In this document: positions 10,872 to 36,386 of the stretch, one piece after another | Layout: each line of letters begins with the position of its first letter | Position numbering within the stretch: position 1 is the stretch's first letter | Origin: Octopus vulgaris | Taxonomy: Eukaryota | Assembly: GCA_951406725.2 (NCBI GenBank) | Contig: OX597814.1 | Coordinates: 21,576,001-21,640,000 of the forward strand | Length of the DNA stretch: 64,000 nucleotides | Reading direction: 5' to 3' | Program-made: the position numbers and the translations under genes | Notes under the pieces: model-generated | The model's input: only the letters and a program-made list of their open reading frames with translations | Databases searched by the model: none | What the model was told of the DNA's origin: nothing

Positions 10872-11978
10872 TATTTAATATAACTATCCCGCTGGAATCT
10901 TTCTATTGATATCAGGATCATAGACGCTTCTGTTTATTTCCTCTGTTGACCGATCAAGTATTCAAGCTATAGTACAGTGTGTTTGTGTATGAGATAAAGA
11001 GAGAGAGTGTGTGTGTGTCTGTGTGTGTCCATGTGCACATATACGTAATACACATGCACAAAGGTATCAGCAGTTGCCTGAAAATATCATTAAGGTACTA
11101 CTTCCTGATGCGACATGCACTTGTCTCTAAAACAATATTGAATGCCATCGGAGAAAAATACTATCCTGGGATAAATATAGGTAATTTTCCTGTTATTAAA
11201 TACATACATAGACAACTACACAAAGGATATTGGTAGAACATTCATTTCAAAACGTCTACCAAGTGCAACCATAACAGACCGGATATAGTTGTTTGAAGTA
11301 GACAAGAAAGGTATGTCCCGTCATAGAAGCCAGCAGCACTGCTGTTGTGAGGAAAACTGAAGAGAAAGAGAATGATTAAAGACAACTGTTTCGAAGCCTT
11401 CAGCTTCAATACCCTAATTATAATATATACGCTTGATTTTATTAGTAAATGCCTATTTGGATAAGCTAGGATTTTCAGAAAAAGAACTCAACCAGCTAAT
11501 ACGCACATTACATACAGAATATATAAGTGTTACAGTAAAAATGTACAAGACTTTTCACAAGTTCAAGATATTTCATTGTCTTATAAGCTACATTCCAACA
11601 GTGGAGATTTGAGTCTTTGTTGATATCCAGCTCCTTCCTTACAAGAAGACTTCAACTAATCAAAAATAGAAAGAATATACATACATACAAACACACATAG
11701 CTACATAGATAGGTATAGATAGATAGATAGATAGATAGATAGATAGATAGATAGAAAGATAGATAGATAGATAGATAGATAGATAGATAGATAGATAGAT
11801 AGATAAATAGATATGCACATATATATATATATATATATATATATATATATACATACACACACACACATATATATATATATATATAAAATATTATTAGAGA
11901 CAAAACCACTATTTTGCAAAACAAACAAGGAAAGACTTAATCAATACATAAAATTTTAATAAATAGTCAAAAAAACCG

Positions 11979-12021
11979 CCACTACAATTGTTTCTTGTCT
12001 TGATCGACAATCTTCAGGTGG
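11979..12021 (-). ncRNA. minimal type I hammerhead ribozyme
   Basis: Minus strand reads CCAC-CUGAAGA-UUGUC(gaucaa)GACAA-GAAA-CAAUUG-UA-GUGG: canonical core, stems I and II, palindromic stem III. Confidence 0.8.
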
Positions 12022-12034
12022 ACTTCCAGGAAAG

Positions 12035-12092
12035 GTGTTCTGTTAATCGTATCAGCTGTGACCCTCGTCGTCGTAACCGACGGAGTGCTCCT
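12035..12092 (+). mobile_element. 3' tail fragment of the SINE family B/chimeric type
   Basis: CGTATCAGCTGTGACCCTCGTCGTCGTAACCGACGGAGTGCTCCT is the reverse complement of 4733-4780. Confidence 0.75.
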
Positions 12093-12417
12093 CTATGTGT
12101 GTGTATATATATATATATATATATATATATACTATTGAATCTTGCAAACCAAATACAAATACGAACTATATTTATATATATATATATATATATATATATA
12201 TATATATATATATATATATATATATATATATATATATAATAATAAATATTAGGGAATAAATCCAAATTTACAGGGAAAAAAAATCAGATTTAGGATTAAA
12301 TCCAATTTTATAGTAAAATATTATAAAATATTATTAGAGACAAAACCACTATTTTGCAAAACAAACAAGGAAAGACTTAATCAATACATAAAATTTTAAT
12401 AAATAGTCAAAAAACCG

Positions 12418-12460
12418 CCACTACAATTGTTTCTTGTCTTGATCGACAATCTTCAGGTGG
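12418..12460 (-). ncRNA. minimal type I hammerhead ribozyme (second copy)
   Basis: Identical to 11979-12021. Confidence 0.8.
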
Positions 12461-32118: not shown

Positions 32119-32302
32119 GAATAATAATAATAATAATAATAATAATAATAATAATAATAATAATAATAATAATAATAATAATAATAATAATAATTATTAT
32201 TATTATTATTATTATTATTATTATTATTATTATTATTACTATTATTATTATTATTATTATTATTATTATTATTATTATTATTATTATTATTATTATTATT
32301 AT
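32119..32302. repeat. (AAT)n directly followed by (TAT)n
   Basis: Directly visible. Confidence 0.95.
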
Positions 32303-34229
32303 CGACTGAATTTATTGATTTTATTTCATTCTAGTGATGAATAAACTGGAACTGAATGATACATTTGTATTCGCTATTTACTTAACGTAAAGCCAACGCG
32401 AAATAAAAATAATAGCAAGCTTCATTAGAATCCTCATTTACGTTAACAACAAAAATTTTAAATATATAAAATCATTTCTAGCTGAAGGATTTATTTTATA
32501 CTTTAATCTTTTCTTGGTTTTATTTATTTATTCATTTTGTTTTATTCCATTTCATCTTGTTTAAAAAATTCTGAATGTTTCCTTGTCTATTTATAAATTA
32601 TTTCAAACTTTTTTTTTTATAATAATACAAGAGTAATTTAAAAGAAATCGATCTGTGTTTTGCTTCCCTAGTGACATATTTTTTTCTTCCAATATTTAAT
32701 ATATAAATGTAATGTTTTTATAGTTCGATTTTAATGTTACTTTCTCACATTATTACTCTAACTCATTTTTTCCCCTGTCTTTGACTCTTTCTTTCTGTTT
32801 TTGATATAGCAGCAGTTCAAGAATTCCTCAGAGAATAACTGTACAACACGTACAGAGAAACTGGGATAGACAGACAATTAAAATTCCAGGAAGGACGTGA
32901 GAGAGAGAGAGAGAGGACGCCACACTATCGGCATTTCATCGCAAACGAAAAGCACAAACTTGACAATAACGACTAAAACATAACCAGCAGACCGGAGAGT
33001 TTCTTCATAGTCGCTAAACCTGCTAGAAATAGGAGTCAAATCTCCTACAAATCACGTACCTTACCGTTTTTTGTTAAGAAAAAAAGCACACAAGTTGTCT
33101 AAATTAACAATAAAACAATCACTATGGATTTGCCCCTGATCATAGAAACAGGACTGGCCTTGGGCTAAGCAGCAACAACAAATAATATAACAAGTCGACA
33201 ACAAAGAATCTACGTAGTCTCTTGAAGCACTAGAAATAACAGCCAAAATACAACAAAATTACACAGTCTGCTCTCATAAAAAGTGAAGAAGCATTCGGTA
33301 ATGCTTTCTTTGTGATATACAAAAGGACGGAATGGTCACGGGTGGGGCACTTTTTATCATAGGTTTAGTTGAATTGAGGCAGACCCAGGGTTACTCGACA
33401 ACAACAGCAACAACATGAATAATTATACATCGAGAACAACAACATTATGCTGTGACTGTCTAAATATAGAAAAGTGAGAAGAATTCAGTTAAATGTGACA
33501 CAGTTGTTAGATACGTCATATCTTATAGCACCAATCGATATTTTAGCAGGAACAATAGAAGCTAAAAGTACACGAATCTACGCACACATACATACATTAC
33601 ATAAATGCATGCATACACGCAAACATATATGCATGCATACATGCATTCATACACAGATGCATACGCACAACCAAAAAGTATTTTGTTTAAATGAGCAAAA
33701 AAGATGTGTCCTTTTGCTTATCTATGCATATGTATGCACATGCGCGTGTGCGCGCAAGTAGTCTCTGCACCGTATGAGCGAACCCAGAATCACGTAGATG
33801 GGAACCGAACTTCCTTGCTATAGAACCATGTATGTATGTACGTGTGCATGTATGTATGTATCTATGTATGCATGTATGTGGGTTTGTGTGTGTATTTATG
33901 TGCATGTGTGTATGTATGCATATATGAATGCATATATGTATGCATGTATGTATGACTATATGCATTTGTGTATGTATGTATGTATGCATGTATGTATGTA
34001 TGTATGCACGTTTGTGTGCATGCATGTATTCATGTATGTATGCATGTATGTATGCATGTATGTATGTATGACTATATGCATATATGTGTGTATGACTATA
34101 TGCATTTGTGTCTGTCTGTCTGTCTGTCTGTCTGTCCGTATGTATGTATGTATGTATGTATGTATGTATGTATACTGACAGTTGCGTGTATGTGTGTCAC
34201 TCGGAGTATGATATTCAAAAAATAACTGT

Positions 34230-35270
34230 CTCCTCTTCTACAAAGTTTCTGACGAATCTTGACTTAGAGTAAGCTGAAGAAAATTTAGGTAATTTGACAG
34301 GAAAGACCTACGTGGAAAGAAATATACTCTTTTCAAGGGACCATGCACTAGATTCTGTTGCGTACCTTCACAACTGTGTCTCCGAAAGTTTCTTGAGGAT
34401 TGAAAAGTCTGAGAATTGAGTTTGAGACGCTGGTAATTTAGTCAACCTGGGACACAAAACAGTCCACTATACTTGCCTCATCACATCCTTGGTATATTCA
34501 TCTGGAGCATGGACTGATCTCGAACACATACCCGAGAGATTTCACCAGATATTTTTAAGGCATTAGAAACTTCTTAAACTTGACATGGAAACGCTAGGGA
34601 AAACGGGCAGTCTCAGAATGAAAAGTCACCTCATGAAGTACCATATGCGATGGGTGGGTCAGGTCATCCGCCTAAATGAGCATAGGCTTCATAACTGATT
34701 AATTTAAAAGCAATTAGTTCTCGGTAAGCGTTCCAATCACAAACCAAACACGAGATTTTGTGGCATCACATAAACAGCCTTAACTCTTTGAACATCAACA
34801 CTCTTCATTAGGAACATTTTGCACTAAACTGATCTGAAAAGCGGTCTATAATTAAAGATAATTAAGGATAATAATCTTCAAATTGATACAGTTGATTTAC
34901 TCATCACATAGTGAAGCGTAATGCCCAAAAACTGCAAGATTTTGAAATTCTGCGTGGTAGAGAGTTCATACGTAATCTCACCTACGCAGTCTCGGTGATC
35001 GCATCACCTTTTCAAATAACAGACTTGTCATCTATGAGAGATTATCTGTCAGAAGGTCAACACAGCGTGCTTGCATATGCATAGCATACAGCTCCAACTG
35101 TACCAACGTTGCTCATGTAATAGCAGGGATTGGAAGTCCACTTTCGACAGATGCACAGGCGCGGAGCTGTTGTAGGTGTGTTTCATGACAATATTATAAG
35201 CTTTATTTGTCAGAAAAGAAAGCTTAAAGCAAAATCAGGACTAGACAGTCACCTGAAGGTTGATAGTAGT
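34230..35270 (+). mobile_element. degraded RTE-like LINE C-terminal region
   Basis: Remnants MRWVGQVIRLNEHRL...LVLGKRSNHKP.TRF and a terminal C2H2-like FICQKRKLKAKSGLDSHLK. Confidence 0.6.
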
Positions 35271-36061
35271 AGAAATGCTATCCAACCTGTTATAAGCATA
35301 TGTCAGAATATGTCAGTAACGAGAGAGTGGCCATGCACGACAGTGTGTTCACGATATGCACATACGATCACATATATACATATACATACATACATACATA
35401 TATATATATATATATATATATATATATATATATATATATATATATATATATATATATATATATATATAAACACACACACACAAACAGACCCCACTTTTAC
35501 GCATACAGACGTGTGTGCACACACACACACACATATATATATATATATATATATATATATATATATATACACTCACAGATAACTCACAAAACATATGCGC
35601 AAACACATGGGTGTGTAACTAAATTTCTGCGTGAATGGGCGTCTACGGATATCAGCGTGTGCATGTGTGAATCTGTGTGTGTGTGTGTGTGTGTGTGTTT
35701 GCGCGCTTTTGTGTATGTGTGTGTGTGCATGTGTGTGGTGCGATATTTTCCTTTTAAGTGTGTTGTATACAGCAGAATGTGCATCCACCAGAAAAAAACA
35801 GCGTGAAACATGCGTTGAGATTTAAAAGTAGAATTACTAAATATAAATATAATCACTAAACACACATGCGTAAATATCCATGCTTGCTTGTGAATATGTA
35901 TACACTTGCGAGCTCGCATATATATATATATATATATATATATATTTATATATATATATATTTGTGTATGTACGTAGATAAGTACGTAGGTATGTATGTG
36001 TGTATATATATATATATATATATATATATATATATATATATATATATATATATATATATAT

Positions 36062-36386
36062 AATTTCACCGTGGAAGGTGTTTATAAACCATTTAAAAAA
36101 AAGACACAAAAGCCGCTAGATTTACTTCAACATTTAAATTTAATTTGTCGAATTGTTTTCGTCTCTTTGAAACCGCGACCTGTTCACGGAATTTTGTCAG
36201 TGAACAGGTCGGGGTTTCAAAGCGACGAAAATATTTTGACAAATGAAATTTAAATGTTGAAGTGAATCTAACGGTTTTTGTGTGTGTTTTTAAATGGCTT
36301 ATAAACACCTTCCACGCTGAAATTGTTTTTGTTTCAACACACGATCTCAGATCAGGTCACTTGCTATGCAAGTACATCGCTGTAAT
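36062..36386. mobile_element. hairpin element (arms 36062-36187 and 36200-36324) plus a ~60-nt unpaired 3' tail, in (TA)n
   Basis: Imperfect inverted repeat directly visible; contains the HHR-like motif below. Confidence 0.85.
36193..36243 (+). ncRNA. hammerhead-like ribozyme with G3:C8 swapped core
   Basis: UUUGUCA-GUGAACA-g-GUCG(11 nt)CGAC-GAAA-AUAU-UU-UGACAAA: perfect 7-bp stem I, 4-bp stem II, palindromic stem III. Confidence 0.65.

What the first reader, a model, noticed from the sequence alone, without database searches (positions are those of the whole stretch)
11885..36386. Three unrelated HHR repeats share one architecture: divergent 5'-to-5' hairpins anchored in (TA)n
Seen: at ~12130-12770, 16122-16598 and 36062-36324 the left arm carries the ribozyme on the minus strand (only partially at 36 kb) and the right arm on the plus strand. 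The arms join just upstream of the HHR, and the outer ends run into or lie near TA microsatellite. The three sequences are otherwise not similar. Known: PLE insertions often carry an inverted pLTR. Inference: a recurrent product of priming both ends of a cut microsatellite on short ribozyme-bearing RNAs, i.e. a system of non-autonomous ribozyme hairpin retroelements mobilised by PLE RT/GIY-YIG. They could also yield long dsRNA, a potential ADAR or small-RNA substrate.
Basis: partly seen in the sequence, partly recalled or inferred. Interest (0 to 1): 0.75.

Follow-up and report, generated by a model that had tools for sequence, protein, structure and literature searches.

The report
Twin-primed Penelope hairpins from one RNA
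The three DNA hairpins are real, mirror-image stubs of Penelope-type jumping elements, a layout already known; splice marks carried by their sister copies show that normal spliced RNA was copied and suggest that both cut ends of the landing site likely copy one and the same RNA molecule from two fixed points.

Summary
All three head-to-head hairpins exist. They are the known inverted-pLTR insertions of Penelope-like elements (PLEs), not a separate system; this scan has noted the layout in other genomes. Family 1 is the 5' end of an autonomous PLE (838-aa ORF, telomerase-like fold). Family 3 is the pLTR plus first 31 codons of a PLE related to one at window 38.4-41.7 kb. Family 2 is a 359-nt tandem retrozyme-like repeat.

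Not found in print: (a) one arm ends at the proximal and the other at the distal reverse-transcription start (54 of 59 family-1 pairs, 14 of 17 family-2, 26 of 26 resolvable in a fourth family); (b) short family-1 copies carry a precisely spliced 23-nt leader, so the template is sense, spliced RNA, against the published antisense self-priming idea; (c) arms share the rare splice donor (9% of junctions) in 12 of 13 readable pairs. Best model: twin priming on one uncleaved RNA. Site 1 is an outlier (both arms long, 41 bp of flank duplicated, error-rich right arm). Locus-level read support was not obtained.

The parts
11882..12028 (-). Solo family-1 pLTR copy, element +3 to +149 (proximal start site), with canonical minimal HHR; 3' end in (TA)n
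   Evidence: L031
12132..12172 (+). 41-bp flank between two (TA)n tracts; not part of the PLE unit; duplicated in inverted form at 12727-12767
   Evidence: exact match only at these two places; 3 one-mismatch relatives elsewhere
12238..12474 (-). Site 1 left arm: family-1 element +233 to +1, plus 5 nt of spliced exon 1 (donor 1) at 12470-12474
12418..12460 (-). Canonical minimal type I hammerhead (CUGAAGA; helix III palindrome; GUA)
12475..12704 (+). Site 1 right arm: element +5 to about +239; 5 substitutions and 5 deleted nt against the family majority; stem I of HHR damaged
12727..12767 (-). Inverted copy of the 41-bp flank, extending the hairpin beyond the element
16114..16380 (-). Site 2 left arm: family-2 monomer positions 320-359 and 1-227 (proximal start site), outer end in (TA)18
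16381..16652 (+). Site 2 right arm: monomer 2-276 (distal start site; unpaired ~45-nt tail), outer end next to (TA)25
16394..16436 (+). Variant type I hammerhead (U3.G8, GUU); mirror copy on minus strand within 16268-16338
36062..36190 (-). Site 3 left arm: family-3 pLTR from about +148 (proximal site) to about +20; partial HHR
36186..36386 (+). Site 3 right arm: family-3 pLTR +9 to +208 (distal site; unpaired ~60-nt tail); holds the first 31 codons of a PLE ORF from ATG 36294, with a stop at codon 9 in this copy
36194..36242 (+). Variant type I hammerhead (G3-C8 swap, extra G, UUU)
38420..41672 (+). 5'-truncated copy of a young autonomous PLE (family 4; RT + GIY-YIG; HHR-like motif 41450-41495; 3' end at distal site in (TA)n); its pLTR and N-terminus resemble family 3

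Best explanation
The hairpins are two-armed insertions of Penelope-like retroelement ends, likely made when both DNA ends at a cut (TA)n or AT-rich site prime reverse transcription on the same uncleaved sense RNA, one at each of two fixed internal start sites. Shown: arms are head-to-head; one ends at the proximal and one at the distal site (44-85 nt apart, the known 'tail'); short family-1 copies are exon1-exon2 spliced; junctions vary and mostly show 1-6 nt overlap. Inferred: the GIY-YIG makes a staggered cut (13-bp duplications in some non-microsatellite sites); both cDNAs run toward the RNA 5' end; the downstream-primed cDNA either stops near the upstream primer (non-overlapping arms, as in L1 twin priming) or reads on, so the same stretch is copied twice; the two cDNA 3' ends are joined by microhomology. 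In families 1 and 3 the start sites lie within ~240 nt of the mRNA 5' end, so products are short dead hairpins; in family 2 the template is a tandem or circular non-coding RNA. The ribozyme is a passenger read through uncut.
For: End pairing: 54 of 59 unique family-1 pairs are +149/+233-239, 1 long/long (the window), 1 short/short, 3 other; family 2: 14 of 17 inverted insertions among 28 unique loci, 1 short/short, 2 other (counted by eye); family 3: 7 of 9 partner arms end at +138-148, 2 at +91-94, none at +208 (query forced one long arm); family 4: 26 of 26 resolvable pairs short/long, 6 cut by locus edges (by eye). Sense spliced template: L091 holds donors GT at two sites 4 nt apart, a 1853-nt intron and an AG acceptor at pLTR +1; the genome has 334 exact donor-1 and 34 exact donor-2 junctions, 0 in reversed controls; 5' ends pile up at or inside a 23-nt exon 1. 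One RNA: among loci of all 34 donor-2 matches, 13 hairpins have a readable partner junction and 12 are donor-2 (about 1 expected at 9%); automatic calls gave d1/d1 23, d2/d2 5, unspliced/unspliced 1, mixed 0, 30 not callable; SNP +42 AA 30, GG 14, mixed 0, 15 not callable. Not fold-back: the short arm reaches further 5' in 14 of 54 pairs while the long arm has 3' sequence the short lacks; same at site 2. Non-overlapping twin-priming footprints in L097, L116, L159, L249, L272. In vitro, a PLE protein cuts and extends both strands, starts at two internal sites that define the tail, and uses unprocessed RNA (PMC11167929).
Against: One donor-2 hairpin (L141) has a partner from a different allele and donor, so two RNAs are used at least sometimes. 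Concordance could also come from one source element and one splice pattern per cell, from intron-less master copies, or from later gene conversion; donor 2 occurs on several SNP backgrounds and arms keep 36 unshared substitutions, which weakens but does not remove these. Six short arms start at +55 to +69, just 3' of the predicted cleavage site, while their partners pass it: this fits a second, cleaved RNA as well as cleavage between passes. Frangieh et al. saw no strand difference in start site in vitro. Site 1 itself breaks the rule and needs an added event. No ORF-bearing partner was found for families 2 or 3 among 50 PLE loci. Samples are top-scoring or exact-match loci, not the whole family.
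Confidence: 0.68

Rival explanations
1. Two-RNA twin priming: each cut end primes on its own RNA, possibly held together as a dimer through the palindromic helix III of the hammerhead, with a protein dimer that fixes one start site per subunit.
For: Mixed pair L141; six pairs with one arm starting just past the cleavage site; all three HHR families keep a palindromic helix III and cofold can pair it between molecules for families 1 and 2; PLE HHRs are proposed to act as dimers (PMC4209133).
Against: 12 of 13 donor-2 pairs concordant against about 9% expected; arms that stop where the other begins (L097, L116, L159, L249, L272).
Confidence: 0.2
2. Fold-back: one cDNA snaps back and copies itself, or an antisense RNA self-primes (the reading given for head-to-head PLE junctions in PMC3846280).
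For: Small palindromes at junctions; arms share variants; site 1, where the right arm also copies 41 bp of flank, needs DNA-templated copying.
Against: Spliced junctions on both arms need sense RNA; in 14 of 54 pairs neither arm contains the other; a copied arm has no reason to stop at one fixed site in four families. It may explain site 1 alone as a later template switch.
Confidence: 0.07
3. A family of self-propagating non-autonomous hairpin elements or MITEs that move as a unit.
For: Hundreds to thousands of short, near-identical copies (first-look candidates 905-2294); some junctions recur two or three times; family 2 is non-coding and tandem.
Against: 48 distinct junction types in 54 pairs; recurring junctions occur on different SNP backgrounds and with short and long arms swapped; arms unequal; no transposase, cognate RT present; same layout in full-length copies.
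Confidence: 0.03
4. Assembly or long-read artefact.
For: Site 1 right arm has about 4% errors, half of them deletions, in a family otherwise 99-100% identical; no contig bridged the site 2 junction in 4 public runs.
Against: Fixed unequal ends, splice-isoform matching and 13-bp target duplications around inverted insertions L011 and L018 are not artefact features; contigs of one public run show other head-to-head family-1 joints. Possible only for details of site 1.
Confidence: 0.02

Closest known systems
Inverted-pLTR insertions of endonuclease-positive PLEs (PMC3846280, PMC8557442; passages read)
   Same: Head-to-head 5'-truncated inverted copy, a tail at one end only, TSD or microsatellite target, HHR in pLTR, first codons of the ORF in pLTR plus tail, intron near the 5' end
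   Different: Tails here are 44-85 nt against the stated 30-40; near-strict one-site-per-arm pairing is counted; many copies are spliced, whereas PLEs are described as retaining introns; antisense self-priming does not fit
PAc (Anolis Poseidon) in vitro mechanism (PMC11167929; main text parts 1-3 of 4 read)
   Same: Two internal RT start sites define the tail; both strands cut and extended; AT-rich targets; unprocessed RNA used; G3/C8 double change partly restores HHR activity
   Different: That work reports no strand preference of start site and does not link the two sites to the two arms of one insertion or to one RNA
Metazoan non-LTR retrozymes (PMC7229834 passages; bioRxiv 10.64898/2026.07.22.740005 part 1 of 5 and passages)
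   Same: Family 2: 359-nt non-coding monomer in partial tandems with a type I HHR, TSDs longer than 4 bp, PLE-like ends
   Different: Inverted two-armed insertions are not discussed in the passages seen; the core is U3.G8 with GUU; cleavage and circles untested. Families 1 and 3 are not tandem monomers
L1 twin priming (recalled, no call)
   Same: Second cut strand primes internally on the same RNA; cDNA 3' ends joined 5'-to-5' by microhomology
   Different: L1 uses poly(A) plus a variable internal site and gives non-overlapping segments; here both sites are fixed and arms usually overlap, giving hairpins
Opposite-strand min-HHR pairs 100-700 bp apart in Schistosoma (PMC4209133, part 1 of 4 read)
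   Same: Two HHRs on opposite strands from truncated PLEs
   Different: Noted there without anatomy or mechanism

Membership tests
EN+ Penelope-like element insertion (family 1) | Cognate single ORF with telomerase-like RT and GIY-YIG endonuclease | tested here: met
   838-aa ORF in L091; model pLDDT 83, top PDB folds are TERTs, E 1.7e-10; motifs collinear with the window's RT/GIY-YIG ORF though hhalign probability was low; Pfam gave no RT hit for this protein
EN+ Penelope-like element insertion (family 1) | pLTR with type I HHR flanking the ORF in partial tandem | tested here: met
   Two direct copies 6340 nt apart around the ORF plus inverted 5' copy in L091
EN+ Penelope-like element insertion (families 1-3) | Inverted 5'-truncated copy with tail at one end | tested here: met
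   window site 1 is the exception (long/long)
EN+ Penelope-like element insertion (families 1-3) | TSD or microsatellite/AT-rich target | tested here: met
   (TA)n at both ends in 56 of 59 family-1 pairs; 13-bp duplications in 4 of 13 family-2 loci tested, a fifth lies in a tandem flank
EN+ Penelope-like element insertion (family 3) | Cognate ORF | tested here: inconclusive
   Tail encodes 31 codons resembling the family-4 N-terminus and HHR layout matches; DNA alignment score 59 against shuffled mean 33, max 55.5; intron-like acceptor upstream in 6 of 7 pattern hits; no full ORF found
PLE clade (Neptune, Nematis, Poseidon) | RT phylogeny | not tested
   No reference set fetched; C-terminal endonuclease and Cys-rich linker seen by eye only
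Non-LTR retrozyme (family 2) | Non-coding 150-400 nt monomer in tandem with type I HHR | tested here: met
   359-nt monomer, dimers and partial tandems; relatives at about 70-75% identity keep the fold, one with canonical CUGAUGA/GUC (L106) and one with U3.G8/GUC (L079)
Non-LTR retrozyme (family 2) | Self-cleavage and circular RNA | not testable with these tools
   No RNA holder listed
Canonical hammerhead core | C3-U4-G5-A6-N7-G8-A9, GAAA, NUH | tested here: inconclusive
   Met at site 1; site 2 has U3.G8, site 3 G3-C8; these are the majority state in their families (29 of 33 and 17 of 25 motif reads); activity unknown
MITE | Fixed TIR-defined ends, constant internal structure, cognate transposase | tested here: not met
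   Unequal arms, 48 junction types in 54 pairs, cognate enzyme is an RT

The most novel reading that the evidence does not exclude
PLE integration is obligate twin priming: one protein complex holds a single sense RNA and starts each cut strand at its own fixed site, reading the same RNA twice, which explains the one-sided tail and head-to-head pLTRs of the whole class. Spliced mRNA is copied freely but yields only short dead hairpins, so PLE 'intron retention' reflects which templates give full-length copies, and the hammerhead may cut between the two passes.
Probability: 0.5. Interest if true: 0.72.

Novelty: new variant of a known kind. Interest (0 to 1): 0.5.

Why it matters
How PLEs form tandem and inverted ends is stated to be unresolved (PMC8557442, PMC11167929). 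The two splice donors act as natural molecular barcodes: they fix the template strand as sense and tie both arms to one RNA in most insertions. That makes a sharp prediction for the existing in vitro PLE system and argues against antisense self-priming. The hairpins themselves are ordinary and abundant.

Tried and rejected
Rfam found no hammerhead at sites 1 and 3 and only sub-threshold hits at site 2. Pfam and PDB sequence searches did not recognise the family-1 ORF; the fold search did. The protein atlas gave no result. Search for ORF-bearing partners of families 2 and 3 among 50 PLE N-terminal loci found none. The shared flank of L003/L024 is a segmental duplication, counted once. A query for element +65 to +150, meant to sample 5' ends without HHR bias, returned nothing (uninformative). 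Public runs: no RNA holder listed; contigs laid on site 1 were swamped by other copies and skipped the repeats; no contig bridged the site 2 junction in 4 runs; neither shows absence. No A>G excess in the three hairpins. Lunse et al. 2017 on PLE hammerhead variants is not held, so I cannot say whether the U3.G8 and G3-C8 cores were reported there. Literature searches for prior description found no paper on spliced pLTR hairpins or one-site-per-arm pairing; subscription papers and all supplements, including Fig. S2 of PMC11167929 on genomic ends, were not seen and may bear on this.
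Full report
Observation. The three inverted repeats are present and mutually unrelated. The genome is 2.8 Gb and likely a cephalopod, from the labels of homologous proteins (inference). Site 1 carries a canonical minimal type I hammerhead on the left arm and on a solo copy at 11882-12028; the right-arm copy has lost one base of stem I. 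Site 2 has sub-threshold Rfam HH9 hits on both strands. Site 3 fits only a relaxed descriptor written after inspection. The variant cores are family majority states, and related families keep the fold with different paired bases: L106 has a canonical core, L079 keeps U3.G8, and family 4 has C3-G8 where family 3 has G3-C8. I take all three as hammerhead-derived; activity is untested.

Family 1. Copies are 99-100% identical. L091 holds a 6340-nt unit with an 838-aa ORF, two direct pLTRs and an inverted 5' copy. The predicted fold matches telomerase RTs best, and RT and GIY-YIG motifs line up with the window's own PLE ORF. The pLTR begins at an AG acceptor. 1853 nt upstream are two GT donors 4 nt apart. 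Short copies join exon 1 directly to the pLTR: 334 exact donor-1 and 34 exact donor-2 junctions genome-wide, none in reversed controls. Of 102 spliced arms tallied, 99 have 23 nt or less of exon 1, 17 of them exactly 23, at an initiator-like TCA+1CTT (initiator consensus recalled). So the short hairpins are copies of the 5' end of the spliced sense mRNA, stopping before the ATG at +288. The long copies examined (L091-L096) keep the intron.

End rule. From 120 family-1 loci I obtained 163 unique arms and 59 unique head-to-head pairs; 54 pair an end at +149 with one at +233-239. Family 2 (30 loci, 28 unique, 17 inverted) pairs 233 with 277 in 14. Family 3 partners end at +138-148 in 7 of 9. A fourth, very young PLE, one copy of which lies in the window at 38.4-41.7 kb, pairs +161 with +217 or a longer end in 26 of 26 resolvable cases, with 6 cut by locus edges. 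Family-2 relatives in L079 and L106 follow the rule too. The gap between the two sites is the known PLE tail, which in vitro marks two RT start sites (PMC11167929).

One RNA or two. Automatic calls on the 59 pairs gave no mixed donors among 29 callable and no mixed +42 SNP among 44 callable. Reading loci for all 34 donor-2 matches by eye, 13 hairpins have a readable partner; 12 are donor-2 and one (L141) is a different allele and donor. About one would be expected at a 9% donor-2 share. One of the 12 (L134) is a composite with a deletion, and one (L144) rests on 6 nt. Donor 2 occurs on several SNP backgrounds, which argues for per-molecule splicing. Fold-back cannot be the general route: in 14 of 54 pairs the short arm reaches further 5' while the long arm has extra 3' sequence, and site 2 is such a case. 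Some long arms stop near where the short arm starts (L097, L116, L159, L249, L272), the footprint recalled for L1 twin priming. Junctions overlap by 2 or more nt in 24, by 1 in 16, are blunt in 8 and have inserts in 11 of 59. Inverted insertions L011 and L018 have 13-bp target duplications, so each hairpin is one event.

The window's three cases. Sites 2 and 3 obey the rule once their unpaired tails are included. Site 1 is the only long/long pair of 59; its right arm also copies 41 bp of flank that is not in the PLE unit and has about 4% errors against under 1% for the left arm. A later intrastrand template switch extending a normal hairpin is my best guess; consensus error in the assembly may add the deletions. 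Public contigs could not settle this, though one run shows other head-to-head family-1 joints at about +58 to +74.

Families 2 and 3. Family 3's tail translates to 31 codons resembling the family-4 N-terminus, with start sites at matching positions, and some copies have an intron-like acceptor upstream; no full ORF was found. Family 2 is a 359-nt tandem monomer like metazoan retrozymes (PMC7229834); its mobilising PLE was not identified.

Comparison. Inverted pLTR, one-sided tail, TSD and (TA)n bias are in print (PMC3846280, PMC8557442), as are opposite-strand HHR pairs (PMC4209133) and PLE origin of retrozymes (bioRxiv). PMC3846280 reads head-to-head junctions as self-priming on an antisense template and says the question is open. 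My searches found no report of spliced pLTR hairpins or of one start site per arm; supplements were not read. Earlier scan notes reached twin priming in other genomes and a retrozyme reading for a 359-bp array in this one; a word search for the spliced-leader evidence found none. These notes are leads, not support.

Verdict. Real, ordinary in layout, useful for mechanism. PLE-type insertion about 0.95; one-RNA twin priming about 0.68. Interest 0.5.

Noticed in passing
window 38420-41672 (+): 5'-truncated copy of a very young PLE (at least 144 copies identical over the last 149 aa; full ORF about 1312 aa; 4581-nt unit) with an HHR-like motif that has C at position 9
   Followed up: partly
L032, L035, L040, L051, L052, L160; joints: Short arms starting at +55 to +69, 6-20 nt past the predicted cleavage site (+48); may record ribozyme-cut templates or RT stalling
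   Followed up: partly
L141: Hairpin whose two arms differ in exon-1 allele and splice donor: a two-RNA or converted insertion
   Followed up: partly
L047 1101-1737: Serial re-initiation: three tandem donor-2 leader copies separated by short inverted exon-1 pieces
   Followed up: no
L079 830-1433; L106 490-1067; L093 7164-7375: Diverged relatives of family 2, two of them head-to-head short/long hairpins in (TA)n, with compensatory changes in HHR stems
   Followed up: partly
window 44594-45739 and 58136-59235: Two near-identical 5'-truncated LINE RT fragments ending in (TATCAAAG)n next to (TA)n; the 58.1-58.5 kb part has many odd TA insertions that look like consensus noise
   Followed up: no
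window 23226-24227 (-): Open frame resembling the C-terminal part of a restriction-like-endonuclease non-LTR element, flanked by (TTA)n (label recalled)
   Followed up: no
L187-L236: Many further PLE families with long open frames; no canonical HHR found within 0.9-1.5 kb upstream of their ORF starts
   Followed up: partly
L003 and L024: Subtelomeric segmental duplication carrying the same family-2 insertion
   Followed up: yes
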